A DNA stretch of 64,000 bases from contig JACPFQ010000004.1 in NCBI GenBank assembly GCA_016182875.1, forward strand, positions 28,637 to 92,636, in the 5' to 3' direction. Position 1 is the first letter of the stretch. Each line of letters starts with the position of its first letter. The notes under the pieces were generated by a model, which was not told the DNA's origin, ran no database searches, and worked only from the letters and a program-made list of their open reading frames with translations. Below, in pieces: positions 18,719-34,870 of the stretch. The translations under genes and the position numbers were made by a program. This stretch comes from Candidatus Doudnabacteria bacterium (GTDB taxonomy: Bacteria > Patescibacteriota > Doudnabacteria > UBA920 > O2-02-FULL-48-8).

Positions 18719-18805
18719 TGGTGCCGGGGACAGGAGTTGAACCTGCATGCCCTTGCGGGCGCTAGCTCCTAAAGCTAGTGCGTCTGCCAGTTTCGCCACC
18801 CCGGC
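18719..18805 (-). tRNA. tRNA-Leu (anticodon TAG), class II with long variable arm
   Basis: Acceptor GCCGGGG/CCCCGGC. Anticodon loop TTTAGGA. Long variable arm. CCA encoded. Confidence 0.8.
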
Positions 18806-19918: not shown

Positions 19919-21430
19919 TTACACGACGCGCGACACCGGCACTTGGTCCATGGCCGGCGGCAGCTCCGGAACCTGCCGTCCTTCCTTCCCCGTATCTGCC
20001 CACGCCGAACCGTTGCGTTCATCTGATCGCTTCACGATCTTGCCATCGAGGTATTTCTCGATGACCTCGATGATGGTCTGATCATCGAGGGCGCATGGCG
20101 GCCCTTCCTTATGCGACTGCGTCGAACCGCCACCAAGGATGTAGCCGGCCTTTGCCGAGGGCATTGAGAACTGCGAACCCTCGACGTAGTTGGCCGCGAG
20201 CTCAGCATCGGTTCGCTCGGTCTTGTCCCCTCGCAGCGCGAACTCCCAACGCCGTAGTTCGATCAGGATCCGGCGCAGGCTGAGCTCAATTTCGATGAAC
20301 GGAATTTCGACGTCCTGCTCCTCCCTGTGGCTTTCTTGCTGGGCGTCGGGATCCTGCGTCATCTCGTCTTCTTGTTCTTTCTTTTTGATTCCTTCGCGGA
20401 TCGAGATGTACACATGACCCCTGGAGTTACGAATGAGAATCACGTCAGCGCCGACGTATCGTGATCGCAAAATTCGCGCGAGCTCGCCGTCACCTGACAG
20501 CGGATGCTCTTTGCGAATCACCACGAACCTGATGGACGGCTTGATGCCAGCGACCTTGACTTTCCGCAACTCGCCTCGGTTGGGTGCAAAGCGCTTAAGG
20601 CACTGTGCAAAAGTCACCTCATTCATGAGCTTTATCCAAAGCTCCAACAAAGTGCTCTGGACGACCTGGGTGGCCAGGAAATTCCCCCGCTCCTCAGGAT
20701 CTTGCGGAAGCGATTGTTCCGAGAGAGCGAGGTGTGGCGGGAATTTCTCGCCGGCAGCGATGCGGTCGGCGATCGCCCACTTGTGCTTGACCACGGGCCC
20801 CATTGCGTCGGAATCGTTGACTCGCCCGCGATCACCCTTCTTAACGTAGTGCGTGACTGAGTCAATCGCGAACCTGATGACGTCAGGCTCGTAGCCCAGA
20901 CGCTTGAAGAACTCGCCACGGTGAAGCAGATCGAGGCCCCGCTTCGAAGGATCCGTGAGATAAGCCGTGTGTTCCGCCTTGTAGCGTTCGAACTTGGCCC
21001 GGTATGCGTTCCACTTAGCTTTGTTCTCCTCAGTCTCTTTCTCTTTCGGCGGCCTCGGAGCCTTGGGGTAATACCCCTTGCCCAGCAGCTCCGCAGCGCA
21101 GGTGTTGATCTGTTCACCCTGTTCGTCCATCCGCCCATGCTCGTCATACGGATTGTCTGTGCCGCCGATTCCGATCGGTGTCAGCCCCAGCGAGTAGAGT
21201 TCTGCGGAAGTCGTATTGTGCGGATCCCGCACGCAAACGACCTTGCCTTCTTTCGGCATCAGTTCGCCGCCGAAGAAGGTGCCCTGAAAAATCGCCCACT
21301 GCTCATCGAGATGAGGATCAGTGTGCGGAGCAAAGGCCCCAGACAACCCCAGGGGGTCGTCTTTGGCCATGGCTCTAATCTGCTCAACAGTGAGTACGAG
21401 TGTCTTGATGTTGGCGATTTCGTGCAACAT
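19919..21430 (-). CDS. Hypothetical protein encoded in the high-GC island
   Basis: High-GC ORF. Start taken at MLHEIANI after RBS AGGGGGA (the longer ORF runs to 21532). No family recognised. Confidence 0.4.
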   Translation of the reverse strand: MLHEIANIKTLVLTVEQIRAMAKDDPLGLSGAFAPHTDPHLDEQWAIFQGTFFGGELMPKEGKVVCVRDPHNTTSAELYSLGLTPIGIGGTDNPYDEHGRMDEQGEQINTCAAELLGKGYYPKAPRPPKEKETEENKAKWNAYRAKFERYKAEHTAYLTDPSKRGLDLLHRGEFFKRLGYEPDVIRFAIDSVTHYVKKGDRGRVNDSDAMGPVVKHKWAIADRIAAGEKFPPHLALSEQSLPQDPEERGNFLATQVVQSTLLELWIKLMNEVTFAQCLKRFAPNRGELRKVKVAGIKPSIRFVVIRKEHPLSGDGELARILRSRYVGADVILIRNSRGHVYISIREGIKKKEQEDEMTQDPDAQQESHREEQDVEIPFIEIELSLRRILIELRRWEFALRGDKTERTDAELAANYVEGSQFSMPSAKAGYILGGGSTQSHKEGPPCALDDQTIIEVIEKYLDGKIVKRSDERNGSAWADTGKEGRQVPELPPAMDQVPVSRVV

Positions 21431-21560
21431 GGCAAAATCCCCCTGCGTTATGTGAATGTTCGAGTTAATGACGTTGAGACAGTCGCCCCAATTGCCGACT
21501 GTAACCGAAAATTTTATCAAAAACACGGTCATCTGTCAATTCAAAGCAACAAAGCTAACG

Positions 21561-21589
21561 TTGACAAAGTGGCCGAAAGTTGCTAGAAT
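21561..21589 (+). promoter_or_regulatory. Consensus sigma70 promoter TTGACA-17-TAGAAT within the island
   Basis: Perfect -35 and near-consensus -10 with 17-bp spacer. Reads toward the island plus-strand operon. Confidence 0.55.
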
Positions 21590-21777
21590 TCGCGGTTATC
21601 ATGTCTGACCGCCCTTTGTATCGGCGGCATCATGATAGGTCTTTAATAATCGTGTTTTAATCATAGGATTTGGTGGGCTGTTTTTTGCGTTGGGTGTGAT
21701 GAACATTCAGCGCAAGAAGCGGTCTAAACATTTACCACGCAACAGACTCTATCAGCCGATCCGTTTAGGAGGCAGAC

Positions 21778-22515
21778 ATGGCAAAAACGCCACCAGGAAA
21801 AGGGCCTAGAAAGGGTCCCGGCGGAAAAACCGGGGGTGGCCCCAGGAAAGCGGTTTACAAGCGAATATACGAAGTCGGCGGCACACCCGACGCCACCGAG
21901 CTCACTGTCACCATCTACAGGGACGGCCTGCTCGCGGACAAGGAAGCCGTGTGGTTCTACCTCGGGGTCGAAGGCAATCTGCACCAGAAGCCGGCCGAAG
22001 AACTCGACCCGGCAGCCCCCGGCGGCAAGAAAATTTGGAAGCTCGAGACCAAGGGCGGAGTCGCCCACGGCAGGCTCGACTTCACGAGCGCCGAGCTCTC
22101 CAAATTCACACACGTCACGGCTAAGCACGGCTCGTTCGACTGGGAGGAGACGAAGACACGGCCGCCAGCAGAGCCCACTGGGGTGAAGCCGAAAACCAAG
22201 TGGTTCAAGCTCACCCCCGACGACGAGAAGATCGAAACCTGGGATGAGCGCGCGGCGTTCACCTTGGTCACCTTCGACGCCACGGGCAAAACCCCGTCGG
22301 CCGAGACGATGCGCATCAGCGCAGGCAAGGTCATTCGCCTGTTCAACCGCGAAACCGGAGCGCTCATCGGCGAGGGCAAGGTCATCACGTTCGCAACGCC
22401 GGGCACCGGCATCCTCGACATCGAAGTCGAGGTCGTCGGCGACTTCCTGGCGAAGCTGACGTTCATGCACATCGCCAGCGCCGAGACGCTCACCAAGGAA
22501 ATCCGACTCAAATAG
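21778..22515 (+). CDS. Island hypothetical protein with Lys/Gly/Pro-rich N-terminus
   Basis: 245 aa. RBS GGAGG. High-GC codon usage. Overlapping minus-strand ORFs are treated as spurious. Confidence 0.45.
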   Translation: MAKTPPGKGPRKGPGGKTGGGPRKAVYKRIYEVGGTPDATELTVTIYRDGLLADKEAVWFYLGVEGNLHQKPAEELDPAAPGGKKIWKLETKGGVAHGRLDFTSAELSKFTHVTAKHGSFDWEETKTRPPAEPTGVKPKTKWFKLTPDDEKIETWDERAAFTLVTFDATGKTPSAETMRISAGKVIRLFNRETGALIGEGKVITFATPGTGILDIEVEVVGDFLAKLTFMHIASAETLTKEIRLK

Positions 22516-22526
22516 GAGAGACTGAC

Positions 22527-23141
22527 ATGGCAGAGATTGGCGGTATCAAGTTTGACTTCCCGGCCATCAAGGAAGTCCTCGCGTCGGCGGCTGGCCATCA
22601 GGTCTCCAACCTGTTGAGCTTCATCCTCGAACGCGGAACCGAGGCCGAGAAGCAGATCGTCGTCCAGGCCGGCAGGTTGATGGCCGAGGGCAAGTTCAAG
22701 GAAGCCGAGGAAGCATTGAAAGCGCTCCCCGGCGGAATCGGCCGGGCTGACGAAGCCATCTGGTGGTCGGATCTGGCATTCCTGCGGCGGCGCAACCTGC
22801 TCACTCCCGCGCAGGCGACGGCGCTCGAAGCCTTCCTCCGCAACCTCACGGAAGCGGAGAAGGACAAAATCCGCCTGACGCACGTGGTCAAGAATGAAGA
22901 CCAGCGCCGCCACGACCTGGTGACGCTGGGACGCATCGACAGGGACGACGCCAAGCGCCAGCACCTGGACATGGTGTTTCACAAAACGCTGGCCGACACG
23001 CTCAACGCAATCGGCGCGCAGGTCAGCACCTGGGTTCGTCCCAAGATTGAGGAAGCCCAGTGGCGAAACAAGCGGTTCGACGGACCGATCTGGCGGCTCT
23101 TCCGCCCGATCACCTGCATCTGGGAAGGCCTCGGCTTCTAA
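22527..23141 (+). CDS. Island hypothetical protein
   Basis: 204 aa. RBS AGGAGAG 7 nt upstream. Tightly packed with flanking plus-strand genes. Confidence 0.45.
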   Translation: MAEIGGIKFDFPAIKEVLASAAGHQVSNLLSFILERGTEAEKQIVVQAGRLMAEGKFKEAEEALKALPGGIGRADEAIWWSDLAFLRRRNLLTPAQATALEAFLRNLTEAEKDKIRLTHVVKNEDQRRHDLVTLGRIDRDDAKRQHLDMVFHKTLADTLNAIGAQVSTWVRPKIEEAQWRNKRFDGPIWRLFRPITCIWEGLGF

Positions 23142-23153
23142 GGAGAAGAGACA

Positions 23154-24107
23154 ATGAATCAGTTCGAACAAGCGTTGCTCCATGTCCTCGAACTGGCCTT
23201 CACCGATGGCAAGGGTAAAGTCCAGAGGACGATTCGTCCCATCACCGCCGGCTGCACGTTCTTCTGGGCGCTCGGCATGTTCCTGGCGTGGCTGCTCCAG
23301 AGCGGGACCCCGGCGTTCGTGTGTGCGGCCATCTGCGGCGCCATCTGGTTCATCCCCATCGGCCGGGTTGCTCTGGCCGCATGGATTGCCCAGATGATTC
23401 CCGAAGAGTGGCTGAAGAAACTGGGCTTGAGCGTCGAAAACTTCACGCCCAGCAAGACCACCTACACCCTCGGCACCGTCGGCATGTGGCAGATCGCGTC
23501 GCTCATCCTGCTCGGAGTCTTCCCGTTCTGGAAGAGCGGCATGTACTACTCGCTGTATGCCGCGTTCTGGGCCGTGATGGTGGCCACGTGGCTTATTGTC
23601 GCTACGTCCGAAGGCGACATCCGCTTCTGGCGCAAGATCTACGGCTGGTCCATCGCCGGGATTTTCGCCGGGATTCTGCTGTTGCTGCTAATGCCGGAAG
23701 AAGTCAACGGACTGCGGTCGTGGTTGGATCGGCGTGCGACGTACACCGTGGCCGAGACCGCGTTCCACAACGGCGTCGCGTCAGATACGCAAGCCATGCT
23801 CCAGCAGACTGACCAGAACCTCCGCGTCCTCGTCAACCAGCGCCGGTACTACAACCTTCAAGGTTGGGACTATCCGGCGGACAAGGAAGCGGAGATCGTG
23901 CGGCTGACTGCGCTGCACGAAGACCTCGTGCGGGAGCGCGACGTTCCGATTGCCAAGGCGCCGGGCCGGTTCTCGGCCGAAGCCGCCAACGCATTCGGAA
24001 GTTCACTCGACTTCGTCAGCGCGACAGCCAGCAACCCCTGGCTCGCGGGGTTTGCCTGCTTCGCACTGCTGATGTTCGGCTGGGTGGTCATGAAGGGAAG
24101 GAGCTAG
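23154..24107 (+). CDS. Island polytopic membrane protein
   Basis: 317 aa. RBS AGGAGAAG. Several hydrophobic helices. Confidence 0.45.
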   Translation: MNQFEQALLHVLELAFTDGKGKVQRTIRPITAGCTFFWALGMFLAWLLQSGTPAFVCAAICGAIWFIPIGRVALAAWIAQMIPEEWLKKLGLSVENFTPSKTTYTLGTVGMWQIASLILLGVFPFWKSGMYYSLYAAFWAVMVATWLIVATSEGDIRFWRKIYGWSIAGIFAGILLLLLMPEEVNGLRSWLDRRATYTVAETAFHNGVASDTQAMLQQTDQNLRVLVNQRRYYNLQGWDYPADKEAEIVRLTALHEDLVRERDVPIAKAPGRFSAEAANAFGSSLDFVSATASNPWLAGFACFALLMFGWVVMKGRS

Positions 24108-24109
24108 CC

Positions 24110-24919
24110 ATGAGCACACCATCTTCGTCGTCAGGAAACGGCCGACTCCGGCGCTTCGTGATCTTCGTCGGGTTCATGGGCGTGATCTGGTTCGCCTTGC
24201 TTCAGCCATGGATGCAGAGCGCCATCGGGTTCAACGGCTGGCACATCATGGCCTACCAGAACGGCATCCGCTCGGCGGACTGGCGCTGTGCCAACAAGCA
24301 GCCCGAGGACATCGGTCCGGACTGCGACATCGACGCAGTTTATGAGAGGTACGTCCCCACCGCACAGCGCGCCGGCAACCTGACAGCGTCGGTCCACCAG
24401 CTCAACGCAATCGCGGCGAACCTCGCCACGGTCAAATCGCCGCTGGTGGTCGATTCTGGGTCCGCGCTCTGGCAGCTCGACAATATCCACGACACAGAAT
24501 ACCGGCAAACCTTCAAAGGTATCCCTGTGTTCAAGGGTCGGGTGCAGATCCGCGTCCGCGAGCGCGTCACCAGCAAGGACTGCGGCTACAATACAACGGA
24601 CGCCAACGGGGTGCCCAAGCCCGGCGGGCCGTTCTGCAAGCTGGAGCTTGTGGACGACAACCTGCCGTACCTGGCCGCGATCGGGCGGCGGTGTCCGGCA
24701 GAGGGCTGCAGCAATCCCTCGTCCTTCACCAGTCCGGAGGCCAAGTTCCTGGTCGGGACGTGTCTCGACCTGGACGCGGCTGCGGTCAACGGTGTCGTCA
24801 ACCTCGTCGTCAATGAGGGTCGGCATGCCGACTACTTCGGCGACAATACCGGGGACTACGTCGTCGAGTATGAACACAATCCCGCGACTGGCTGCCGTGG
24901 GGAGCAGTTCACGTACTAG
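24110..24919 (+). CDS. Island secreted/membrane-anchored Cys-containing protein
   Basis: Start taken at MSTPSSSS after RBS GGAAGGAG. Signal/TM segment FVIFVGFMGVIWFALL. Confidence 0.4.
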   Translation: MSTPSSSSGNGRLRRFVIFVGFMGVIWFALLQPWMQSAIGFNGWHIMAYQNGIRSADWRCANKQPEDIGPDCDIDAVYERYVPTAQRAGNLTASVHQLNAIAANLATVKSPLVVDSGSALWQLDNIHDTEYRQTFKGIPVFKGRVQIRVRERVTSKDCGYNTTDANGVPKPGGPFCKLELVDDNLPYLAAIGRRCPAEGCSNPSSFTSPEAKFLVGTCLDLDAAAVNGVVNLVVNEGRHADYFGDNTGDYVVEYEHNPATGCRGEQFTY

Positions 24920-25053
24920 CAGCCAACCCAAGGAGGAAGCGTCTCCGGTCAGATGACTGGAGGCATGACAATAACCACGGCCCTGAAGGAGCAGGGCTGG
25001 AGAGCGGCGTCGCACAATCGGCACCGCTTTTTTTTATTTTGCAAAACAAAATA

Positions 25054-25078
25054 CTCCGACCCGCCCGCGGCGTCGGAG
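25054..25078. repeat. CTCCGAC...GTCGGAG hairpin (member of TCCGAC hairpin family)
   Basis: 7-bp inverted repeat with 11-nt loop. Same arm sequences as the hairpins at 39332, 39921 and 60646. Confidence 0.5.
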
Positions 25079-25315
25079 TTAAACTGGCTTTAATATTGCC
25101 TCTATGGGCAGGGATATTGGCGAATCTGTTTTTAGCCGCTTGCTGAAATTGAGAATAGTGAATCCTTTGATGGCTTTGGTTTTAGGATCAAGCCGAATCA
25201 CGACATCATCCGCAGTTTCTACAGAGAGGGAGCTTTTGGATGGCTTGCCTTGGGAAAAATACATTACGTCTGCTTGTTTGTCGTAGTAGTAATAAAGTTT
25301 CATGATTGAATCCAA
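25079..25315 (-). CDS. DUF2283-family small protein (second copy)
   Basis: 78 aa. YYYYDKQADVMYF...KAIKGFTILNF. Low GC, embedded in the high-GC island. Confidence 0.5.
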   Translation of the reverse strand: MDSIMKLYYYYDKQADVMYFSQGKPSKSSLSVETADDVVIRLDPKTKAIKGFTILNFSKRLKTDSPISLPIEAILKPV

Positions 25316-25608
25316 TAAGTTAAATACGCTGTGAGGATAAAATTTCGCCTGTTAATTTTGACGACTGCTGCCAGATGCTTGTTATGAGAAATTTCGCGGT
25401 AAAGAATAAATGCCTTGGGATCTGTTTTGGATGGACGAATAAGCTCTGGATTTTCCAAAACAAGCTTTATGCTTGGCTTGAGAGTTCTCAGCTCGGGGTG
25501 AAAATTGACTATGTGGCTCCACCGTTCGCTGGTCAATTCCACCGGCCCGAATGGTGAGTCAAATAGCTCCATGTAAAAATTATAAACCCATTGCGTCAGT
25601 CTTGACAA
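25300..25608 (-). CDS. DUF4258-like small protein (putative toxin partner)
   Basis: 102 aa. Overlaps the downstream DUF2283 gene by 16 nt. Same gene order as the pair at 2506-2953. Confidence 0.4.
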   Translation of the reverse strand: MSRLTQWVYNFYMELFDSPFGPVELTSERWSHIVNFHPELRTLKPSIKLVLENPELIRPSKTDPKAFILYREISHNKHLAAVVKINRRNFILTAYLTYWIQS

Positions 25609-25630
25609 GTGGACGGTTTTCTGCTATACT
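25602..25630 (+). promoter_or_regulatory. Sigma70-type promoter TTGACA-17-TATACT upstream of island secreted protein gene
   Basis: Shares the core TTGACAA.GTGG.CG with the promoter at 21561. Confidence 0.45.
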
Positions 25631-25745
25631 TGTACGTTAAAATCCCGAATTTGTTTCAGGGCCCAAAATTGAGGGCTCTACAACAAGTTCAGAATTTACG
25701 GAAACCGCAAGAATTGTAAAAAGGTCTAGGAGGACCAATACTACC

Positions 25746-26738
25746 ATGAGAACGAAACTCTTTTTCGTCGTCGCGTTCGTCGCACTCGCGTCTACCGCGT
25801 TCGCACAGGAGACGCTCGACTTCAGTACCCAGCCGCGCTCAGTGCGCGCCATCGCTAAGGTCGTCATCGAGACGGCGGGGTACCTCGTCAGCGAGGAGTC
25901 GCTGAGCACCATCGACCCCTCCTGCACGTGGAACCGCACGCTCGACGTGAGCGACCTCGAGCAGGCGCTCAACACCATCCTGCCGAGTTGCGGCAACGAG
26001 GCGCAGTTCGACGACTACCGGGTGACCATCCGGAAGCGCGGCAGCCCGGCACCAGCCACACGCAGTATGTCCGCTCCCGCTCGCCGCGCCGCAACGCCGA
26101 CCATCGCGGAACCCGAACCGCCTGCCGCTCAGCCTGCCGCACCCGCGGCGCCGGCGTCCACTGACCCGAACGTGTGGTCAGCCGCCGACGTCAGCCGCTA
26201 CGGCCCCTTGCCGCTGAATGCCAGGCCGGAGTTCTATCGCATCAGCCAGCAGGTCAGGCGGCAGGCGTTCGGCGACGCGTTCGTCAACTTCCGCAACGCG
26301 GAAGAGGACTTCGCACGCCGCACCGGCGTTTACCCCGATCAGGTTGGTCCGTTCGTCGGCGCTACCTACGGCGCATATTCCCCCTACGGTTTGTACGGCT
26401 ACGGCCTCTCGAGGGGTTGTTCCACTGGACAGCCGTCCGGCAGGGTCAAGTTCAAGTACTACGGTGAGGGAAAGGAACGTGGCCTCTGGAAGGTCTGGTT
26501 CAACGGACGTCGTATCGGGTCCGTGGACCAGGGAGACAGTGCGTGGAACGAGATGTGGGAGTGCGTCGGCGACTATGTCGTCGAAATCGAAAAACGCCGC
26601 TGTCAACCCAGGGGTCTCTGCCGGTATCGAGACGTGTACAGCGTCAGAGCCGGCGAACTGACCGAGGTTGAGATCGGCGACGTGCTGTTCGAAGACAGCC
26701 ACGAACGGCGGCGGCCTCAGATTCTCACCGAGCGTTAA
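25746..26738 (+). CDS. Secreted protein with signal peptide and Pro/Ala-rich linker (high GC)
   Basis: 330 aa. MRTKLFFVVAFVALASTAFAQE signal peptide. RBS AGGAGGA. Confidence 0.5.
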   Translation: MRTKLFFVVAFVALASTAFAQETLDFSTQPRSVRAIAKVVIETAGYLVSEESLSTIDPSCTWNRTLDVSDLEQALNTILPSCGNEAQFDDYRVTIRKRGSPAPATRSMSAPARRAATPTIAEPEPPAAQPAAPAAPASTDPNVWSAADVSRYGPLPLNARPEFYRISQQVRRQAFGDAFVNFRNAEEDFARRTGVYPDQVGPFVGATYGAYSPYGLYGYGLSRGCSTGQPSGRVKFKYYGEGKERGLWKVWFNGRRIGSVDQGDSAWNEMWECVGDYVVEIEKRRCQPRGLCRYRDVYSVRAGELTEVEIGDVLFEDSHERRRPQILTER

Positions 26739-26766
26739 TAGCGCTCGGATCTCATGGATGCCAAAA

Positions 26767-26810
26767 CGGCCAGTTACTCATCGCGAGTGACTGGCCGTTC
26801 GTTTTTTATG
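26767..26810. terminator. Bidirectional terminator at island right edge
   Basis: GGCCAGTTACTCATCGCGAGTGACTGGCC hairpin followed by a T-run. Confidence 0.6.
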
Positions 26811-26815
26811 AACAC

Positions 26816-27184
26816 TTATACGTAATCGCTCAGGGCACTGTTAATCACATTAACAATAACATATGAGAGGATAATCACCACCAAACCGATAATTGCGTTA
26901 CGCAAAGTTTTTTTGCCGTTCTCCGCCCATTCTTCATTCGCTCCGGAAAATATATATTGGAACCCCCCGATAATAACGAACAGTACGGCCAAGAGGCCAG
27001 CAAACGTCAGAAGAATGTTTATTATTTTTGTAATCAGGGCCGCGGGGGATGAACTGTACTCAGGTAAAGTCCCACTTGCGGGGTTCGGTATATCCAATCT
27101 AGCCAATGTCAGCAACGGCATGCCCATTACAACAATTGCCATCAAAACTATCGGCAGATACTTTTCAAGCTTTTTTAAGCTCAT
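26816..27184 (-). CDS. TrbC/VirB2-like pilin family protein (paralog 1)
   Basis: 122 aa. Signal peptide plus two TM helices with motif GGFQYIFSGANEE..A....IIGLVVIILSY. Confidence 0.6.
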   Translation of the reverse strand: MSLKKLEKYLPIVLMAIVVMGMPLLTLARLDIPNPASGTLPEYSSSPAALITKIINILLTFAGLLAVLFVIIGGFQYIFSGANEEWAENGKKTLRNAIIGLVVIILSYVIVNVINSALSDYV

Positions 27185-27185
27185 A

Positions 27186-27319
27186 CCAGGTACTGAAAAT
27201 TTGATTTAATGATACTTAACATAAGTTATATTATTATCTAGTCCGGTAATAAAAATTTGATTTAACTGCTGGTCTTTTAGTCCCGCCTTTGGCGGGACTA
27301 TCAAATTTCTAGTACCTGG
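27186..27319. repeat. 134-bp segment bounded by 20-bp inverted repeats CCAGGTACT(G/A)GAAAATTTGAT
   Basis: IRs at 27186-27205 and 27300-27319 (19 of 20 match). The segment holds the terminator hairpin of pilin 2 and the promoter region of pilin 1. Confidence 0.55.
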
Positions 27320-27340
27320 CATACTTTTTTCTTTAGCTTG

Positions 27341-27724
27341 CTAAACGCCGCTGCTGCCACTGCTAAGCAAGGCGTTGGAAATCACGCGGACAATCACGAA
27401 CGAAAGAATAATCACGACGATTCCGATAATGGAATTGGTGATGATTTTTTTGGCGCTCTCGCCCGCTTCCTCATTGCCGGCTGCGGTAATGTAGCGGAAG
27501 CCGCCGATGATGAGGAACAGCACTGCGACCAATCCGGCAATCGCAAGAGCTATGTTGATGATACGCAGGATGAATTCGGAAAGCTTGGTATCGCCCGGAA
27601 GATTGGTGCCAGTGGGATTTGGCCTTTCGAATTGCGCGCCTGAGACCAATGGCAGGACGAACAAAGCCAGGCTCAGCACAATCGAGGTAATCTGGGCAAT
27701 TTTGACTAATTTATTATGCTTCAT
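27341..27724 (-). CDS. TrbC/VirB2-like pilin family protein (paralog 2)
   Basis: 127 aa. GGFRYITAAGNEE motif. Confidence 0.6.
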   Translation of the reverse strand: MKHNKLVKIAQITSIVLSLALFVLPLVSGAQFERPNPTGTNLPGDTKLSEFILRIINIALAIAGLVAVLFLIIGGFRYITAAGNEEAGESAKKIITNSIIGIVVIILSFVIVRVISNALLSSGSSGV

Positions 27725-27753
27725 AGGTTTCTTGAGTTTTTTATCTTTAGGTT

Positions 27754-27796
27754 CGCCCGGTCATCCGACCGGGCGTCCAGTCGAATGACTGGACGA
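27754..27796. repeat. GC-rich double-hairpin repeat (REP-like), copy 1
   Basis: CGCCCGGTCATCCGACCGGGCG + TCCAGTCGAATGACTGGACGA. Roughly 85% identical to 50950-50993. Confidence 0.5.
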
Positions 27797-27824
27797 CCGA
27801 CCTTTCTACCTAAAGCTATTAATG

Positions 27825-28214
27825 TTATGTGGGAGGCTTGGATAAGGCGTTATTGATTACGCTAACTATTATATAAGAAAGAATAATTATAGACAAACCA
27901 ATTATAGCATTTCTTAAACCCTTTTTGCCAGCCTCGGCCCATTCTTCATTGACGCCCGATGTGATGTACTGGAAGCCGCTGTAGATGATGAAAAAGATGG
28001 CCAGGACGCCGGCCACAACCAAAAGCTGCCTGATAAAGAAGGTGAATAGGTAGCCAAAGCTGTTGCAGGCTGTTCCGGGCGTGGCGTCAGCCGGACAGGT
28101 GCCAAAATCGACCAAATAATCCTTTGAGGGATTTTTGATTTCTGCCAGGGCTGGCAAAGCCAGCACAGCGACAACCAAACACGCGATAATCCAAAATTTA
28201 TACTTATTTTTCAT
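27825..28214 (-). CDS. TrbC/VirB2-like pilin family protein (paralog 3)
   Basis: 129 aa. SGFQYITSGVNEEWAE motif. Confidence 0.6.
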   Translation of the reverse strand: MKNKYKFWIIACLVVAVLALPALAEIKNPSKDYLVDFGTCPADATPGTACNSFGYLFTFFIRQLLVVAGVLAIFFIIYSGFQYITSGVNEEWAEAGKKGLRNAIIGLSIIILSYIIVSVINNALSKPPT

Positions 28215-28906
28215 GACGGCGCTCCTATTAAATTGGCCGCTGCCCTTATTATAACGTATGCAAACAAAATAGCGACAATGCCCGCGCTAATCCACTTGAG
28301 CGCCGCCTTGGCTTCTGTCAACTGCTCCTCGTCGCCAGCGGCGGTGATGTATCGAAAGCCGTTGAACACCAGCATGAGAATAGCTAACAATCCGACTATC
28401 TGCAAAAATCCTGCAAGCAGCCGGTTGACCAAAAAGTCGACGAAAGTCGGTTCATTGATCGGGTTAACCACTCTATTGGCAAAAGATGGATTGGCAGGGT
28501 CGGGAATTTCTGTGGCTCCAAAGAAATTAATCATGCCAGCCACAAGGACAAATGACAGCACGGCGACGATGAAACCATATACCGCGTAGCTAAAAGCAGT
28601 CTTGGCTCGCTTGACCGCTTCGGCGTTGCCCTGGGAAACAATCATCTGAAACCCGGCGGCAACCACAACCAAAATCGGAATCAAGGCAGTGAAGCTGGTA
28701 AAAATGATAAGCAGGCGAATTATCAAATCTGGCAGATTGGCAGCTCCGGCAAGGGGCATTCCGAAAAAATCGACTTGACTGCCAAAAGGATTGCAAAGTT
28801 TGGTCGTGGTTTCGTCCGGATTACAGCCGCCTTGCGCCAAAGCTGCAGCCGGCAATAAAAACAGCAAACCTAAGGAGCATAAAATTGTTTTTTTGTGTGT
28901 CAGCAT
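28211..28906 (-). CDS. Tandem-duplicated TrbC/VirB2-like pilin protein (two domain copies)
   Basis: 231 aa. The domain occurs twice (GFQMIVSQGNAE and GFRYITAAGDEE). Confidence 0.55.
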   Translation of the reverse strand: MLTHKKTILCSLGLLFLLPAAALAQGGCNPDETTTKLCNPFGSQVDFFGMPLAGAANLPDLIIRLLIIFTSFTALIPILVVVAAGFQMIVSQGNAEAVKRAKTAFSYAVYGFIVAVLSFVLVAGMINFFGATEIPDPANPSFANRVVNPINEPTFVDFLVNRLLAGFLQIVGLLAILMLVFNGFRYITAAGDEEQLTEAKAALKWISAGIVAILFAYVIIRAAANLIGAPS

Positions 28907-29334
28907 CAGAATCCGGGTAAAAATTCGTAAATGCTGTTGTCCGCGCCCGGGCTAAAGCTGTAGCCGCCGAAAGCATGAAGCAAATAATCAACCAGCAGGA
29001 ATGCCATCATAATGATGAAAAATCCAATAACCCCGTTTTTGAAATCGGCTCTGGCGGCTTTCATCTTCTCTTCGTTGCCAGCCGAGGTAGCGAGGTTATA
29101 ACCCCCCCAAAAAATAAAGAATAAAGCTATGAGCCAAGAAATCCCCAGAAAAAGATTAATCAGCCTGACTGCAATCAGTACAATTCCGGTAAGCTCACAG
29201 GGCTGGGAATCAGTGCCCGCCCCTCGCCGGCCGCAGGTGACAAGCGCGGCTTGAGCCAAACTTGCGGTCAGGGAAAATAAAACTACGGCCGCGATTAGAA
29301 TTTTAAGCTTTGGCTTTATTTTTCCATATTCCAT
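28906..29334 (-). CDS. TrbC/VirB2-like pilin family protein (paralog 5)
   Basis: 142 aa. GGYNLATSAGNEE motif. Confidence 0.55.
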   Translation of the reverse strand: MEYGKIKPKLKILIAAVVLFSLTASLAQAALVTCGRRGAGTDSQPCELTGIVLIAVRLINLFLGISWLIALFFIFWGGYNLATSAGNEEKMKAARADFKNGVIGFFIIMMAFLLVDYLLHAFGGYSFSPGADNSIYEFLPGF

Positions 29335-29351
29335 ATTCTATGTTCCAGATT

Positions 29352-30668
29352 CTAATTTTTGATGAGCAAATTCACGGACGCCGCGGCGTTGCGGATAGCG
29401 TCTTCCACGCTGAGGTTGCGAAGCACCACGTCATCAATCATCTTAAGAAAGATGCTTTCGAACTTGGCGACATCTTTTTTGTAGACCGTCCGGGCAGAAA
29501 GCGCTTCCTCGGCAAACACGCCGATTTCTTCGTCTGCCGCCTGTTCGGTCAGAATGTCCTTGCGGCTGGAAGGCAGTTTCTTTTTCTCATAATATTTCTT
29601 GAGATTTTCTTTTTCGCTGATGAACTTCAAGAAATCCCAGGCCACGGCCTGATCGCCGGAAAACTTGGAAACCGCTTCACCCCAATAATTGGCAAAATTG
29701 ACTTTCAGCCCTGATTGGTCAATTTGGGGGATGGGAGCGACGGCCCAGTTGAGATTGGGCGCGCGGGCCCTAAGCGTGGGCATTAAATAAGCATAAGAAA
29801 ATATCATGGCAACCTTGCCCGAGGTAAAGGCATCGAGGCTGAAGTCAGACTTGCTGTTCCAGGTGTAAACCTTTTTGCCTGGATCGGCAAACTGGGTATA
29901 AAACTCAAGCGCTGTTGCCCCCGGATTAAAAGTTTCGCGGTTGGGAAGATTAACTTCGTTGTCAAACACGGCACTGCTGCCGTTGTCAGAATAAAATTGC
30001 GTGCCGTTCTGCAGCATCAAAAGCAGCAAGATATCAACTGCCCGGTTGACATTGGCAGAAGTCCCCAGCGCCACGGCCGAAACATTGAAGGTCCCAGGCT
30101 TGGCTTGCCGGGTTATCTTCTCGACAGCCGCCACCAGTTCCGGCCAGGTTTTGGGCGGCAGGACTCCGGCAGAATTGAGCAAATCCTTGTTGTAGTAAAG
30201 GGTTAAGACATCGACACTCAGCGGAAAAGCGTAGATTTTTCCGTCTTTGATGAAGTCAGCGCTCGCCGCGTCGATGAAAGTCTCTTTATACGCTCTGCTG
30301 GTGATTAAACTGTCCGGGGCCGGGGCGAGCTTGTCGATATGTTTGGGCAGCCAGTCATTGTGAATGGTAAAGATGTCCGGAGTGCGGCCCGAAGCGATGG
30401 CGTCCACCAGTTCCTGCTCGTAATCGGCAATGTCTTTCTTGACAAAAGTAATCTTGATGTTTTGATGGCTTTCCTGGTAAGCCTCGATCAAAGGATTGAC
30501 GTTTTCTGACTCTTCGAATGTTTTCCACCAAACGATTTCTATTTCCTTCTGCTCGGAAGGTTTGTTGCTTCCTCCCCCGCCAAACACTACAGCCAAAAGC
30601 ACAATCAGAAGTACCGCAATCGCCCCGCCGATAATGAGATATTTTTTATTCATTTTTATTTCTAGCAT
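29352..30668 (-). CDS. ABC transporter extracellular solute-binding protein (family 1, sugar-type), orphan
   Basis: 438 aa. N-terminal TM/lipobox-like segment. SBP_bac_1-like sequence. No permease adjacent. Confidence 0.75.
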   Translation of the reverse strand: MLEIKMNKKYLIIGGAIAVLLIVLLAVVFGGGGSNKPSEQKEIEIVWWKTFEESENVNPLIEAYQESHQNIKITFVKKDIADYEQELVDAIASGRTPDIFTIHNDWLPKHIDKLAPAPDSLITSRAYKETFIDAASADFIKDGKIYAFPLSVDVLTLYYNKDLLNSAGVLPPKTWPELVAAVEKITRQAKPGTFNVSAVALGTSANVNRAVDILLLLMLQNGTQFYSDNGSSAVFDNEVNLPNRETFNPGATALEFYTQFADPGKKVYTWNSKSDFSLDAFTSGKVAMIFSYAYLMPTLRARAPNLNWAVAPIPQIDQSGLKVNFANYWGEAVSKFSGDQAVAWDFLKFISEKENLKKYYEKKKLPSSRKDILTEQAADEEIGVFAEEALSARTVYKKDVAKFESIFLKMIDDVVLRNLSVEDAIRNAAASVNLLIKN

Positions 30669-31821: not shown

Positions 31822-32238
31822 ATGCCAGAATTTAATAAAAAATACGACCTCGAAGAACGGACTGCTATCTTTGGGGAGGACGTAATCGAATTCTGCATCG
31901 GCTTGGAACAAACAGCAATTTCAAAACCGCTCATCAGCCAATTAGTGAGGTCAGGAACGAGCATTGGAGCGAATTATATGGAAGCAAATGCAGCAAGTTC
32001 CAGAAAAGACTTTAAAAATAAAATCAGCATCTGTAAAAAAGAAGTTCAGGAAACTAAACATTGGTTCCGAATGCTACTTAAATGTTTCCCTTCGCTAACT
32101 GACAAGATGAGGCAGTTAAACAACGAAGCCCAAGAATTAACTTTAATTTTCGGCAAAATTCTTTCAACGCTTAATAAGGCTGATCATCCCATTAAAAATT
32201 CAGTATTAAAAAATTCACTCGAAATTCAAAACTCATAA
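31822..32238 (+). CDS. Four-helix-bundle protein (23S rRNA IVS-protein family, TIGR02436-like)
   Basis: 138 aa. SIGANYMEANAASSRKDF...ETKHWFRML. Confidence 0.55.
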   Translation: MPEFNKKYDLEERTAIFGEDVIEFCIGLEQTAISKPLISQLVRSGTSIGANYMEANAASSRKDFKNKISICKKEVQETKHWFRMLLKCFPSLTDKMRQLNNEAQELTLIFGKILSTLNKADHPIKNSVLKNSLEIQNS

Positions 32239-32247
32239 TTCAAAATT

Positions 32248-32862
32248 ATGAATGAGCTAACTCCCAAACAAAAAAAATTACTAGACTTGCTTTCTGAGCA
32301 GATTAGAACCAAGGGGCTGCCTCCCTCTATTTCAGAGATTGCTCACAGCCTCAAATTGAAATCCAAAAATGCCGTAGTGAAGCTTCTAAACAGCCTGGAA
32401 GCAAAAGGTTTTATCAGACGGTCAAGCAAGGCCCGCGATATTGAAGTCTTAAACCCGGATGGGGAGCCGTTGGGGCGAGGACTTTTGAGCGTGCCGCTGC
32501 TCGGGCGAATCACGGCGGGAATACCCATGCTGGCCGAAGAACAGGTTGAGGATTGGTTAAATTTACCTATGAGCCTGGTCCGGGGGCGCAAAGACGTGTT
32601 TTTGCTCAAAGTTGCCGGCATGAGCATGAAGGATGCAGGCATTCTGGATAGCGACTTGGTTTTGGTCAAACAGCAAAAAATTGCCGAACCCGGAGACATC
32701 GTCGTGGCTTTGCTGGAAGATGAAGCCACGGTCAAGCGCTTGGTGAAAAAAGAGGGCAGGTTCTTCCTAAAAGCGGAAAATAAAGAATACCCAAATATTT
32801 ACCCTGAGCATGAATGGTCGATTCAGGGAAAAGTAATCGGAGTTATCCGGAGGATGGAGTGA
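32248..32862 (+). CDS. lexA: LexA repressor
   Basis: 204 aa. N-terminal wHTH. Ala-Gly cleavage site (VAGMSM). Ser/Lys dyad of an S24 peptidase. Confidence 0.9.
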   Translation: MNELTPKQKKLLDLLSEQIRTKGLPPSISEIAHSLKLKSKNAVVKLLNSLEAKGFIRRSSKARDIEVLNPDGEPLGRGLLSVPLLGRITAGIPMLAEEQVEDWLNLPMSLVRGRKDVFLLKVAGMSMKDAGILDSDLVLVKQQKIAEPGDIVVALLEDEATVKRLVKKEGRFFLKAENKEYPNIYPEHEWSIQGKVIGVIRRME

Positions 32863-33343: not shown

Positions 33344-34870
33344 ATGCAAAATTTTCCAACTAAAGTATACTCGGCAGCTCTCCTGGGCCTTGATGCGGCC
33401 TGCGTAGAGGTGGAAGTTGATATCTCAGGCGGCTTGCCGAAGACAATTATCGTCGGACTTCCGGACACGGCCGTCCAAGAGGCTAAGGAGCGCGTCAAAT
33501 CCGCGATCAAAAACTCCAACGCCATATTCCCACCCACGCGCATAGCAGTTAACTTGGCTCCGGCCGACATCCCCAAAAACGGCACTCACTACGATTTGCC
33601 CATAGCACTTGCCGTGCTTCTTAACTCCGGACAAATATTTTTTGAGCCCAAGGGCAAGCTCTTTTTGGGCGAACTGGCCTTAGACGGCTCGGTCCGCGCA
33701 GTAGCCGGCGTGCTTCCGATTTTGCTTATGGCCAAAAAGCAAGGATTCAAAACAGTGTTTATACCGCATGCCAACAGCAAGGAAGCTAGCCTGGTTTCCG
33801 GAATCCGTATCATAGCCATCAAAAATTTGTCCCAACTGATTGGATATCTGCAAAATCTTATCAAAATTGCCCCAGTTAAAGAAATCGATTGGTCCGGCGT
33901 TTTAAAAACTTTGGAAAACGGTTTCGACATGAAACTAGTTAAAGGACAAGAAGCTGCCAAACGCGCCTTGGAAATCGCGGCAGCGGGCGGCCACAATATA
34001 CTGCTCTCAGGTCCCCCCGGTACGGGCAAAACCTTGCTTGCCAAGTCCTTGCCTTCCATCCTTCCCCAGCCCACTGTGGACGAGGTCTTGGAGATTACGA
34101 AAATCTACAGCGTCGCCGGGCTCCTTAGCTTAAACAAAACCTTGGTTACCAACCGGCCCTTCCGCCATCCCCACCACACTTCTTCAGCCGTAGCTTTGGT
34201 CGGCGGGGGGTCCAGCCCCAAGCCGGGAGAAATCTCACTGGCTCATCGCGGAGTACTATTCCTTGATGAATTCCCGGAATTTGCCCGGTCGGTATTGGAA
34301 AATCTAAGGCAGCCGCTGGAAGACGGCGTGGTCACTGTTGCGCGGGCTCAAGCGACCATTACCTTTCCCGCGACTTTTACCTTGGTCGCAGCGCAAAATC
34401 CCTGTCCCTGCGGTTATTTTGCCGACCCAGCTCATTCCTGCTCCTGCTCGCCCTCTCAAATTATGAAGTATCAGAAAAAAATCTCCGGACCCTTGTTGGA
34501 CCGAATCGATCTTTGCATTGAAGTTGGCAGGGTCGAGTACGAAAAACTTACAGGCGAAGCAGAAACCGAAAATTCGGAAGATATCCAAAAAAGAGTCCAG
34601 AAAACTCGGGATATCCAAACTCAAAGATTTGAAGGAAGCGGTATTAAAACCAATTCCGAAATGAGCATTGGGGAAATTAGAAAATTCTGCGAACTCGGCC
34701 CAGAAGAACGGGAGTTCATGAAAACAGTGGTCATAAAAATGTATCTGTCGGCCCGTTCGTATCATCGAATCCTAAAAATCGGAAGAACCATAGCTGACCT
34801 TGCCCAATCACCGGACATTAAAGTTGCGCATCTGGCCGAGGCCATCCAATACCGGCCAAAAGTTGAATAA
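33344..34870 (+). CDS. comM: Mg-chelatase-like AAA+ ATPase ComM/YifB
   Basis: 508 aa. N-terminal VEVDISGGLPKTIIVGLPDTAVQE. Walker A GPPGTGKT. C-terminal ChlI domain. Confidence 0.9.
   Translation: MQNFPTKVYSAALLGLDAACVEVEVDISGGLPKTIIVGLPDTAVQEAKERVKSAIKNSNAIFPPTRIAVNLAPADIPKNGTHYDLPIALAVLLNSGQIFFEPKGKLFLGELALDGSVRAVAGVLPILLMAKKQGFKTVFIPHANSKEASLVSGIRIIAIKNLSQLIGYLQNLIKIAPVKEIDWSGVLKTLENGFDMKLVKGQEAAKRALEIAAAGGHNILLSGPPGTGKTLLAKSLPSILPQPTVDEVLEITKIYSVAGLLSLNKTLVTNRPFRHPHHTSSAVALVGGGSSPKPGEISLAHRGVLFLDEFPEFARSVLENLRQPLEDGVVTVARAQATITFPATFTLVAAQNPCPCGYFADPAHSCSCSPSQIMKYQKKISGPLLDRIDLCIEVGRVEYEKLTGEAETENSEDIQKRVQKTRDIQTQRFEGSGIKTNSEMSIGEIRKFCELGPEEREFMKTVVIKMYLSARSYHRILKIGRTIADLAQSPDIKVAHLAEAIQYRPKVE

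What the first reader, a model, noticed from the sequence alone, without database searches (positions are those of the whole stretch)
26816..29334. Tandem array of five TrbC/VirB2-like pilin paralogs, one a tandem-duplicated fusion, next to an orphan solute-binding protein
Five consecutive minus-strand genes encode 120-230-aa proteins. Each has a signal peptide and two hydrophobic helices with the conserved core GG(F/Y)xYI(T/F)(S/A)xGNEE...A....I(I/V)G(L/I)xxIILS(Y/F). The gene at 28211-28906 contains the module twice. This family is typical of CPR-type cell-surface or conjugative-pilus-like systems and likely mediates host attachment or DNA/protein transfer. The paralog expansion, and the IR-bracketed promoter between genes 1 and 2, hint at antigenic or phase variation.
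Basis: partly seen in the sequence, partly recalled or inferred. Interest (0 to 1): 0.55.

Follow-up and report, generated by a model that had tools for sequence, protein, structure and literature searches.

The report
Sugar-binding protein plus T4SS pilin array
This is a conserved operon of an ultra-small (Candidatus Doudnabacteria) bacterium that encodes a membrane-anchored sugar-binding protein followed by five ancient, VirB2-like "type IV secretion pilin" paralogs. The pilin arrays themselves are already known in this bacterial group, but their tight coupling to a nutrient-uptake-type binding protein appears not to have been described.

Summary
Five consecutive minus-strand genes (122, 127, 129, 231 and 142 aa) all score above Pfam's threshold for PF18895 T4SS_pilin, and the 231-aa gene holds two modules.

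The window comes from a Candidatus Doudnabacteria MAG. Tandem VirB2-like pilin arrays in Patescibacteria are already published: 441 arrays have been catalogued, and one is essential in Southlakia.

What I add:
- **The SBP is not an accidental orphan.** It directly precedes the array in 52 of 68 loci found through the pilins. Pilin genes directly follow it in 36 of 39 loci found through the SBP. In other lineages it leads complete co-directional clusters: SBP, pilins, VirB6-like, PrgI, VirB4-like.
- **The paralogs are ancient and position-specific.** W4 (27341-27724) is as conserved as housekeeping genes (dN 0.056). The other four evolve about 5-6 times faster, but still under purifying selection.
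- **Module fusions are common in the family**, with up to 16 modules in one protein.
- **A strictly conserved 9-mer (AAAGGTCGA), with hairpins in about half the loci, precedes W4.**

Phase or antigenic variation is not supported. No VirB4, VirB6 or ABC permease lies in the 64-kb window. A conserved high-GC gene block next to the array remains unexplained.

The parts
29352..30668 (-). Membrane-anchored MalE-type carbohydrate solute-binding protein and first gene of the operon. It has one N-terminal TM or signal anchor and no Cys, so it is not a lipoprotein.
   Evidence: PF13416 1.8e-37 and PF01547 5.2e-32. One hydrophobic segment at residues 11-29 and no Cys. Closest solved relatives by profile are sugar/maltose SBPs, E 1e-25 to 1e-18. 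About 60% identical across Doudnabacteria orthologs. Directly upstream of pilin arrays in 52/68 loci, and followed by pilins in 36/39 loci found through the SBP.
28906..29334 (-). W1, a PF18895 pilin-like paralog (142 aa). Its mature N-terminal segment carries a conserved Cys34/Cys46 pair.
   Evidence: PF18895 39.7 bits. Same-position orthologs score 53-100 bits against 26-52 for the next-best window paralog. Cys conserved. Fused to W2 in P0005/L027.
28211..28906 (-). W2, a covalent double module (231 aa): signal peptide, hairpin A, a ~25-aa external linker with a (I/L)PDPxNP...NP motif, then hairpin B.
   Evidence: PF18895 61.8 bits with two stretches. Helices 58-90/95-128 and 155-188/193-226 in the AF2 model, pLDDT 62. 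A two-module gene sits at position 2 in about 20 loci. Conserved C28...LC38NP.
27825..28214 (-). W3, a PF18895 pilin-like paralog (129 aa). Its stop and start overlap W2 (ATGA).
   Evidence: PF18895 36.2 bits. Orthology is ambiguous between W3 and W5 types.
27745..27805 (-). Conserved leader element in the W3-W4 spacer: the 9-mer AAAGGTCG(G) followed by two GC-rich hairpins.
   Evidence: The 8-mer occurs once in the 64-kb window. AAAGGTCGA lies at the same place in 20 or more related loci, with unconserved flanks. 54 nt are 100% identical to L167 although third codon positions of the neighbouring genes are only 41-55% identical. RNA fold -41.4 kcal/mol, z -5.5. No Rfam match.
27341..27724 (-). 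W4, the most conserved paralog (127 aa, no Cys) and the candidate core or major subunit.
   Evidence: PF18895 51 bits. Orthologs average 65% identity against 35-47% for the other paralogs. 92% aa identity and dN 0.056 against L167, lower than GalU at 0.10. The core is nearly invariant.
27183..27322 (-). W4-W5 spacer, specific to this lineage. It has a 23-nt inverted repeat (27183-27205 / 27300-27322) and an inner hairpin (27279-27299). The 3' arm covers the W5 start codon.
   Evidence: RNA fold -55.2 kcal/mol, z -7.3. Identical and in the same orientation in L001 and L003. Relatives have 1-18 nt here.
26816..27184 (-). W5, the last PF18895 paralog (122 aa). Copy number varies among relatives at this end of the array.
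   Evidence: PF18895 46.2 bits; TrbC PF04956 24.7 bits, E 2.8e-5, below threshold. Relatives carry 1-3 genes after W4.
26765..26799 (.). 15-bp stem hairpin between the convergent W5 and the 330-aa gene. It is terminator-like in both directions.

Best explanation
The locus is the SBP-plus-pilin sub-module of the chromosomal Patescibacteria-type type IV secretion system (related to monoderm MPF-FATA systems). Here it is detached from the ATPase and channel genes.

**Shown**
- One operon-like string encodes a membrane-anchored carbohydrate-type SBP followed by six VirB2-like hairpin modules in five genes.
- The unit SBP-then-array is conserved across many genomes and several different upstream contexts.
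- In other lineages the same unit is followed, on the same strand, by VirB6-like, PrgI (VirB3-like) and VirB4-like genes.
- The paralogs are old and position-specific. One of them (W4) is under housekeeping-level constraint and is preceded by a conserved cis-element.

**Inferred**
- The proteins are inserted through Sec and cleaved after the signal peptide. They sit as N-out/C-out helical hairpins.
- A VirB4/VirB6 machine encoded elsewhere in the genome assembles them into a pilus- or conduit-like surface structure.
- W4 is the bulk or core subunit. W1, W2 (a covalent dimer), W3 and W5 are lower-copy, faster-evolving subunits that adapt the structure to the partner cell.
- The SBP binds a host-derived sugar or glycan, as a receptor/adhesin or as the substrate-capture step of uptake through the machine.
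- The conserved 9-mer and hairpins set W4 expression apart from the rest of the polycistronic mRNA, for instance by processing and stabilisation.
For: - **Family:** PF18895 above gathering for all five genes, and TrbC sub-threshold.
- **Topology:** signal peptide plus two TM helices per module.
- **Organism:** Doudnabacteria.
- **Arrays are the rule:** 106 complete arrays, with the number of modules peaking at 6.
- **SBP linkage:** 52/68 and 36/39 in reciprocal searches. Upstream neighbours vary between ComM-GalU and GyrA-methyltransferase.
- **Full clusters:** SBP, pilins, TrbL/VirB6-like, PrgI, then a P-loop_TraG/AAA_10/DUF87 ATPase in L058, L059 and L147, and as far as VirB6-like in L069 (L044 is by phmmer similarity only).
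- **Orthology and rates:**
- **Cis-element:**
- **Literature:**
  - Pilin arrays of 2-11 genes occur in 383 Patescibacteria assemblies (PMC12102498).
  - The six-gene array in Southlakia is essential (PMC10633639).
  - A 2025 review speculates about uptake from the host (PMC12857230).
Against: - No VirB4, VirB6, PrgI or VirD4 gene lies in the 64-kb window, so the machine is assumed, not seen, for this genome.
- Homology to bona fide VirB2 is weak: PF04956 is below threshold, and hhalign against verified Agrobacterium VirB2 gives probability 6.5%.
- There is no sequence hit to solved pilins.
- The AF2 model is too poor for a fold test.
- No pilus has ever been seen for this family.
- The SBP could still serve an ordinary ABC importer encoded elsewhere.
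- No SBP-pilin fusion protein was found.
Confidence: 0.62

Rival explanations
1. Fixed-composition conduit rather than a pilus. The six hairpin modules form one hetero-oligomeric membrane- or wall-spanning ring or bundle of defined stoichiometry, comparable to concatenated proteolipid c-rings. Together with the SBP this works as an uptake device.
For: - Each paralog is retained at its own position over long evolutionary times.
- Neighbouring modules are repeatedly fused: W2 double, W1+W2 triple in P0005.
- Database proteins carry 5-8 and up to 16 modules behind a single signal peptide.
- Modules per array peak sharply at 5-7.
- An SBP, the hallmark of import, leads the operon.
- Patescibacteria T4SSs mostly lack relaxase and coupling protein (PMC12102498, PMC10633639).
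Against: - W4 is far more conserved than the others and has its own regulatory leader. That fits a high-copy major subunit better than a 1:1 complex.
- Array size does vary, from 4 to 8 genes.
- The family is related to pilins that form filaments.
- No structural evidence is available.
Confidence: 0.2
2. Unrelated neighbours. The SBP is an ordinary carbohydrate ABC-importer component whose permease and ATPase lie elsewhere. Its adjacency to the pilin genes reflects conserved gene order only.
For: - It has typical SBP_bac_1/8 domains and many invariant aromatic and polar residues.
- Its closest solved relatives are sugar SBPs.
- Housekeeping genes such as GalU, ComM and FtsH are also syntenic around it.
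Against: - Adjacency survives changes of every other neighbour: GalU inverted or absent, GyrA-methyltransferase context, VirB6/VirB4 context.
- Directly after the SBP came a pilin-like gene in 36 of 39 SBP-selected loci, and in two more after a second, tandem SBP copy. The remaining locus (L153) has genes of 127, 83 and 356 aa, not a permease-sized pair.
- Gaps to the first pilin gene are 17-55 nt.
Confidence: 0.13
3. One reading: a paralog cassette system for antigenic or phase variation, switched by inversion of the IR-bracketed spacer.
For: - A 23-nt IR flanks the W4-W5 spacer.
- Four of the five paralogs evolve fast.
- Copy number after W4 varies among genomes.
- Antigenic variation has been suggested for VirB2 paralogs of Bartonella and Anaplasma (cited in PMC12102498).
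Against: - Paralogs are 25-53% identical and position-orthologous, so they are not recent copies.
- dN/dS is 0.04-0.26.
- No recombinase was found among the window ORFs scanned.
- Orientation is the same in three assemblies.
- The IR spacer is confined to this lineage.
- The arms are only 94 nt apart and form an RNA stem over the W5 start codon.
Confidence: 0.04

Closest known systems
VirB2-like pilin arrays of Patescibacteria (Southlakia epibionticum SEML1_0014-0019; 441 arrays catalogued in PMC12102498)
   Same: Same Pfam family (PF18895). Tandem co-directional genes, low identity between paralogs (25-53% here against a published mean of 25% and maximum of 54%), chromosomal location, and no relaxase nearby.
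   Different: Here the array is not next to virB4, virB6 or prgI. It is led by a MalE-type SBP gene, contains a conserved two-module fusion, and is embedded between housekeeping genes. The SBP link, the positional orthology and the leader motif are not mentioned in the papers I could read.
VirB2/TrbC conjugative pilins of Gram-negative T4SSs (Agrobacterium T-pilus, F/RP4 pili)
   Same: Small proteins with a signal peptide and two hydrophobic helices joined by a short charged loop. TrbC HMM hits are below threshold, and the register of the hhalign alignment matches the topology.
   Different: - One pilin gene per system rather than five.
- Those systems are diderm machines with VirB5 and VirB7-10.
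- Statistical support for homology is weak here.
- Cyclisation and processing motifs were not examined.
Multiple VirB2 paralogs in Bartonella and Anaplasma T4SSs
   Same: Tandem divergent VirB2 copies within one system.
   Different: Those are interpreted as antigenic or host-range variants of one subunit. Here the paralogs are ancient, position-specific and under purifying selection, which suggests distinct structural roles.
SBPs attached to T4SS biology: PrgZ of pCF10 (OppA-like pheromone receptor) and ChvE of Agrobacterium (sugar sensor for VirA). From my own knowledge.
   Same: A solute-binding protein that couples an external ligand to a type IV system.
   Different: They belong to different SBP families (SBP_bac_5 and Peripla_BP_4 against SBP_bac_1/8). 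PrgZ feeds a chromosomal Opp permease and ChvE feeds a sensor kinase. Neither is the conserved first gene of a pilin operon.
Archaeal Ced DNA-import system (CedA1 VirB2-like pilin, CedA, CedB; cited in PMC12102498)
   Same: A T4SS-derived machine with a VirB2-like filament protein, used for import rather than export. No relaxase.
   Different: It has no SBP and a single pilin type. Homology to the present proteins was not tested.
Mycoplasma ICE Mbov_0395/MMCAP2_0565 pilin-like conjugal transfer protein (NCBIfam NF045849)
   Same: The best NCBIfam match for all five proteins. It is a 2-TM pilin-like protein of a monoderm conjugation system.
   Different: Only W2 passes the curated cut-off (43.7 against 40). 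It is a single-copy gene in a mobile element with a full conjugation set.

Membership tests
Pfam PF18895 T4SS_pilin | HMM score at or above the gathering threshold (26.6 bits) | tested here: met
   W5 46.2, W4 51.0, W3 36.2, W2 61.8 (two stretches), W1 39.7 bits. The same assignment is precomputed for the public copies.
Pfam PF18895 T4SS_pilin | Signal peptide followed by a two-helix hydrophobic hairpin with a short polar loop | tested here: met
   Hydropathy segments, alignment, and AF2 secondary structure of W2.
TrbC/VirB2 pilin (PF04956) | HMM score at or above the gathering threshold (27.9 bits) | tested here: not met
   Best is W5 at 24.7 bits, E 2.8e-5. W4 scores 15.1 and W3 14.2. W1 and W2 give no hit.
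TrbC/VirB2 pilin (PF04956) | Detectable homology to an experimentally characterised VirB2 | tested here: inconclusive
   hhalign of the six modules against A. tumefaciens VirB2 gave probability 6.5%, E 0.0057, with 68 columns in topological register. The VirB2 sequence was verified 99% against annotated virB2.
TrbC/VirB2 pilin (PF04956) | Fold like solved conjugative pilins | tested here: inconclusive
   The AF2 model of W2 has pLDDT 62.5. Foldseek against PDB gave nothing below E 0.49. The profile against PDB sequences gave no pilin.
TrbC/VirB2 pilin (PF04956) | Encoded with VirB4/VirB6 type IV machinery | tested here: not met
   None in the 64-kb window. The feature is met in related loci L058, L059, L147, L069 and L075, and in L044 by sequence similarity only. 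The rest of this genome is not available.
TrbC/VirB2 pilin (PF04956) | Polymerises into an extracellular filament | not testable with these tools
   Needs microscopy or biochemistry. It has not been shown for any PF18895 protein according to PMC12857230.
Patescibacteria VirB2 pilin array (as defined in PMC12102498) | Two or more PF18895/PF04956 genes in tandem in a Patescibacteria genome, with divergent paralogs | tested here: met
   Five genes. Doudnabacteria origin. Paralog identity 25-53%.
NCBIfam NF045849 Mbov_0395 pilin-like conjugal transfer protein | Score at or above the curated cut-off (40 bits) | tested here: not met
   Only W2 passes (43.7). W4 scores 38.4, W5 33.9, W1 22.9 and W3 21.4.
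ABC-importer solute-binding protein (SBP_bac_1 / SBP_bac_8) | Domain HMMs above threshold | tested here: met
   PF13416 130 bits and PF01547 112 bits. The PDB profile hits sugar SBPs.
ABC-importer solute-binding protein (SBP_bac_1 / SBP_bac_8) | Operon partner permeases and ATPase | tested here: not met
   None in the window. In 36 of 39 SBP-selected loci the next gene is a pilin-like gene, and in two more the pilins follow a second tandem SBP copy.
Invertible-promoter phase switch (fim-type / inverton) | Inverted repeats flanking a promoter, a site-specific recombinase, and both orientations present in populations | tested here: not met
   The IR is present. No recombinase was found in the scanned ORFs, and no minus-strand promoter hit lies between the arms. 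There is one orientation in three assemblies; this is a weak test because assemblies are consensus sequences.

The most novel reading that the evidence does not exclude
The SBP-led PF18895 module is a new kind of import apparatus. A sugar- or glycan-binding SBP captures material from the host cell surface. It hands that material to a T4SS-derived conduit built from a fixed set of about six VirB2-like hairpin modules, which in some genomes are concatenated into one polypeptide. The conduit is powered by VirB4. This would be an SBP-dependent uptake route that is neither ABC, TRAP nor TTT, and it would explain why the T4SS is essential in genome-reduced epibionts.
Probability: 0.15. Interest if true: 0.85.

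Novelty: new variant of a known kind. Interest (0 to 1): 0.55.

Why it matters
Patescibacteria make up a large share of bacterial diversity and live off other cells. Their T4SS with its pilin array is the first T4SS found to be essential for its owner (PMC10633639). What it transports is unknown, and a 2025 review can only speculate about uptake of molecules from the host (PMC12857230).

A conserved carbohydrate-type solute-binding protein is the leading gene of the pilin array and, in some lineages, of the whole T4SS cluster. That gives the uptake or host-sensing idea a concrete, soluble, testable handle: express the SBP, find its ligand, and look for partners.

Three further observations constrain models of how a monoderm T4SS could build a surface structure:
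- the split into one slow-evolving and four fast-evolving paralogs;
- the recurrent module fusions;
- the conserved leader element before W4.

As a plain annotation matter, the array itself is an expected feature of a CPR genome.

Tried and rejected
- **Solved pilin structures.** A profile of the six modules against PDB sequences gave only chance hits.
- **AlphaFold2 of W2.** With 9 sequences it gave pLDDT 62.5. Foldseek against PDB was uninformative.
- **AlphaFold2 of the SBP.** With 40 closely related sequences it gave pLDDT 64.4, with the C-lobe poorly modelled. I did not use it for fold search.
- **tblastn of W4 against 72,556 plasmids.** No match.
- **hhalign against verified Agrobacterium VirB2.** Weak.
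- **First related-loci run.** It failed with all six modules because they were too divergent. It worked with three.
- **GyrA, not VirB4.** I suspected the ~810-aa gene upstream of the SBP in several loci was VirB4. It is GyrA.
- **High-GC block as disguised T4SS genes, prophage or defence island.**
  - No Pfam, PHROG or PADLOC hits.
  - i537 has only one homolog cluster in the word-indexed search.
  - The multi-TM i317 family is not VirB6-like (hhalign probability 2.5%).
- **SBP-pilin fusion proteins.** None found in 140 SBP homologs.
- **IR spacer as a MITE.** No other copy in the window.
- **Rfam.** Nothing credible in 26700-29400.
- **Iterative HMM script.** One run timed out and was replaced by single-pass phmmer.
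Full report
**What is there**

Region 26816-30668 (minus strand) holds six tightly packed genes:
- an SBP gene (29352-30668, 438 aa);
- after a 17-nt gap, W1 (28906-29334, 142 aa);
- W2 (28211-28906, 231 aa);
- W3 (27825-28214, 129 aa);
- after a 100-nt spacer, W4 (27341-27724, 127 aa);
- after a 156-nt spacer, W5 (26816-27184, 122 aa).

A 15-bp hairpin at 26765-26799 is shared with the convergent downstream gene. W1/W2 and W2/W3 overlap by 1 and 4 nt.

Every W protein has an N-terminal hydrophobic signal segment and two further hydrophobic helices. W2 has four. The AlphaFold secondary structure of W2 shows two long helix-loop-helix hairpins joined by a disordered linker.

The mature N-terminal regions share an 'NP' motif. 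W1, W2 and W3 carry a Cys pair there, and it is conserved in the orthologs of W1 and W2.

**Family**

- All five proteins pass the Pfam gathering score for PF18895 T4SS_pilin, and W2 does so with two stretches.
- TrbC/VirB2 (PF04956) is hit below threshold, with the best E-value 2.8e-5.
- The best NCBIfam model is the Mycoplasma ICE pilin-like protein NF045849. Only W2 passes its cut-off.
- The SBP is a clear SBP_bac_1/SBP_bac_8 protein. Its nearest solved relatives are sugar and maltose binding proteins.
- The SBP has one N-terminal membrane anchor and no cysteine, so it is not a lipoprotein.

**Source and surroundings**

The exact proteins are in NCBI as hypothetical proteins of a Candidatus Doudnabacteria MAG (HYV13_01865 and neighbours, a 327-kb contig). 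They also occur in independent Logan assemblies of SRR121133xx-121134xx. The closest genome loci are Doudnabacteria.

The rest of the window is ordinary chromosome: RNase Y, SMC, FtsH, FtsK, IF-2, RecA, LexA, ComM, GalU and seven tRNAs. Among the ORFs scanned (nearly all of those of 150 aa or more) there is no VirB4, VirB6, PrgI or VirD4, no relaxase and no ABC permease or ATPase.

**Comparative genomics**

In 80 genome loci found through the pilins, PF18895-like genes almost always form co-directional arrays. Among 106 complete arrays the number of modules peaks at 6 (37 arrays), followed by 5 (20) and 7 (12).

About 20 Doudnabacteria-type loci share the window's order: ~140 aa, ~220 aa double, ~125, ~125, ~120 aa.

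The SBP gene lies directly upstream on the same strand in 52 of 68 loci that have room upstream.

The reciprocal test used 80 metagenome loci selected only by SBP similarity (33-59% identity). Of the 39 with at least 2.5 kb downstream:
- 36 have a pilin-like gene immediately after the SBP;
- two of the three exceptions are tandem SBP pairs followed by pilins.

The genes upstream of the SBP differ between lineages: ComM-GalU, inverted GalU, or GyrA plus a methyltransferase. The conserved unit is therefore SBP plus array.

In L058, L059 and L147 the same strand continues with TrbL/VirB6-like proteins (two in L058, one in L059, none in L147), a PrgI protein (confirmed in L059 and L147) and an ATPase with P-loop_TraG, AAA_10 and DUF87 domains. 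L069 continues as far as a VirB6-like gene. L044 shows the same order by sequence similarity only. The SBP is thus the first gene of complete Patescibacteria T4SS clusters in some lineages. In the Doudnabacteria lineage the SBP-pilin part has been separated from the rest.

In Saccharimonadia-type loci (as in Southlakia) the array has no SBP and faces a divergently transcribed VirB6/VirB4 set.

**The paralogs are old and unequal**

- Window W1, W2 and W4 each find their best match at the same array position in about 20 loci, with a wide margin over other paralogs. W3 and W5 are less distinct.
- Mean identity to positional orthologs in 12 loci: W1 35%, W2 41%, W3 46%, W4 65%, W5 47%. For comparison, SBP is 60%, GalU 63% and ComM 74%.
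- Against the closer relative L167, synonymous sites are saturated. dN is 0.056 for W4, compared with GalU 0.10 and SBP 0.14, and 0.30-0.32 for W1, W2, W3 and W5.
- Every dN/dS that could be computed is 0.04-0.26.
- Copy number changes only after W4, where 1 to 3 genes occur.

Fusions recur. W2 is a conserved double module, and P0005/L027 fuses W1 to it. A full HMMER search found 84,660 family representatives. Its top scorers are single proteins with 2-16 concatenated modules behind one signal peptide.

**Spacers**

However:
- relatives have only 1-18 nt between W4 and W5;
- three assemblies show one orientation;
- as RNA the arms make a 23-bp stem over the W5 start codon.

More striking is the W3-W4 spacer. 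The 9-mer AAAGGTCGA (AAAGGTCGG in the window, at 27797-27805) is present there in at least 20 related loci with unconserved flanks, and occurs nowhere else in the window. In about half of the loci a GC-rich hairpin follows it.

In the window and in L167, 54 nt after the motif are identical, although third codon positions of the neighbouring genes are only 41-55% identical. The region folds far better than shuffles, with z -5.5. Rfam has nothing for it.

In the shortest spacers the motif lies too close to the start codon to be a -35 box of a standard promoter, so I favour an RNA-level role. This is inference.

**What is known**

- Quinonero-Coronel et al. 2025 (PMC12102498) searched 3,035 Patescibacteria genomes with PF18895 and PF04956. 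They report 441 arrays of 2-11 pilin genes, a mean paralog identity of 25%, and pilins away from virB4 in many assemblies. They suggest host-range or antigenic versatility.
- Wang et al. 2023 (PMC10633639) show that the six-gene array and the T4SS are essential in Southlakia.
- A 2025 review (PMC12857230) calls a pilus in a monoderm an intriguing possibility and speculates about uptake from the host.
- None of these texts mentions solute-binding or substrate-binding proteins in this context. Full-text searches combining these terms with CPR T4SS or pilins found no relevant paper.
- One GTDB-class Doudnabacteria genome in their Table S1 is scored VirB4-positive.

**Mechanism proposed**

Shown: the gene content, the conserved SBP-array unit, its membership in full T4SS clusters elsewhere, the rate asymmetry among paralogs, and the conserved leader.

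Inferred:
- Sec insertion and signal cleavage give N-out/C-out hairpins. This topology is compatible with tandem fusion.
- A VirB4/VirB6 machine encoded elsewhere extracts or organises them into a surface structure.
- W4 is the core or major subunit and is separately controlled at the mRNA level.
- W1-W3 and W5 are specialised, faster-evolving subunits. In other lineages the first positions of the array carry large ectodomains of 160-570 aa.
- The SBP binds a host carbohydrate as sensor, adhesin or substrate-capture step.

**Rivals**

I considered three alternatives: a fixed-stoichiometry conduit rather than a filament, coincidental synteny of an ordinary ABC SBP, and phase or antigenic variation. 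They are weighed in the structured fields. The third is the least compatible with the data.

**Verdict**

The added value lies in four findings:
- the SBP coupling;
- the ancient division of labour among the paralogs;
- the family-wide module concatenation;
- the conserved leader element.

I rate the finding a new variant of a known kind, of moderate interest.

Noticed in passing
window 19919-26738 (and the 4-9 kb after the array in L007-L028, L040, L167): A high-GC block lies immediately 3' of the pilin array and is transcribed convergently. GC is 0.57-0.64 and GC3 is 0.70-0.82, against 0.50-0.64 for the other window genes measured. In 16 of 17 related Doudnabacteria loci the 4 kb after the array is on average 9.8 GC points richer than the 5 kb before it. 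The difference is 1.1 points where FtsH follows instead. The genes are syntenic but fast-evolving: one secreted (330 aa), one multi-TM (317 aa), one TM-anchored (269 aa) and three cytoplasmic. They have no Pfam, PHROG or PADLOC match and are not VirB6-like. A compositional island kept at one position across diverged genomes is unexplained.
   Followed up: partly
window 27745-27805 (minus strand); same position in 20 or more loci: A strictly conserved 9-mer, AAAGGTCGA, lies in the spacer before the most conserved pilin gene. Here it is followed by a 54-nt double hairpin that is 100% identical to a relative whose synonymous sites are saturated. Its function is unknown and there is no Rfam family.
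   Followed up: partly
proteins P0132, P0133, P0136, P0154, P0219 and others: 'Polypilins': single polypeptides with 5 to 16 concatenated PF18895 hairpin modules behind one signal peptide. Examples are P0133 with 6 modules in 552 aa and P0154 with 16 in 1775 aa. The family has 84,660 representatives at 50% clustering.
   Followed up: partly
window 25079-25608: A low-GC (0.41) pair of small minus-strand genes sits inside the high-GC block. One is a DUF2283 protein (78 aa). The other (102 aa) has a weak PBECR3 nuclease-like hit, so the pair is probably a toxin-antitoxin module. In L167 the same spot holds PIN plus DUF2283.
   Followed up: no
window 31822-32238 and 32248-32862; 33344-34870; 34960-37254: Upstream of GalU lie a '23S rRNA intervening sequence protein' (PF05635) gene, LexA, ComM (Mg-chelatase-like) and a 764-aa fused N6 DNA methylase with a type I S-like specificity domain. 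ComM-GalU-SBP-array is syntenic in many loci.
   Followed up: no
window 18719-18805 and 19055-19726: A tRNA-Leu(TAG) gene and a PaaX_M (Cas2-like domain) protein gene lie at the far end of the high-GC block, between it and FtsH. In lineages without the block the array abuts FtsH directly.
   Followed up: no
L107 17-2998: A GyrA homolog of 993 aa with an Intein_splicing hit, which is probably an intein-containing GyrA. It lies upstream of an SBP-pilin unit in a metagenome contig.
   Followed up: no
window 37461-37537: A tRNA-Ile gene with anticodon TAT.
   Followed up: no
window 50974-50987: A second near-copy (CCGGTCGTATGACC) of the hairpin core CCGGTCGGATGACC from the W3-W4 spacer, just 3' of tRNA-Ser. 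0.04 matches are expected by chance.
   Followed up: no
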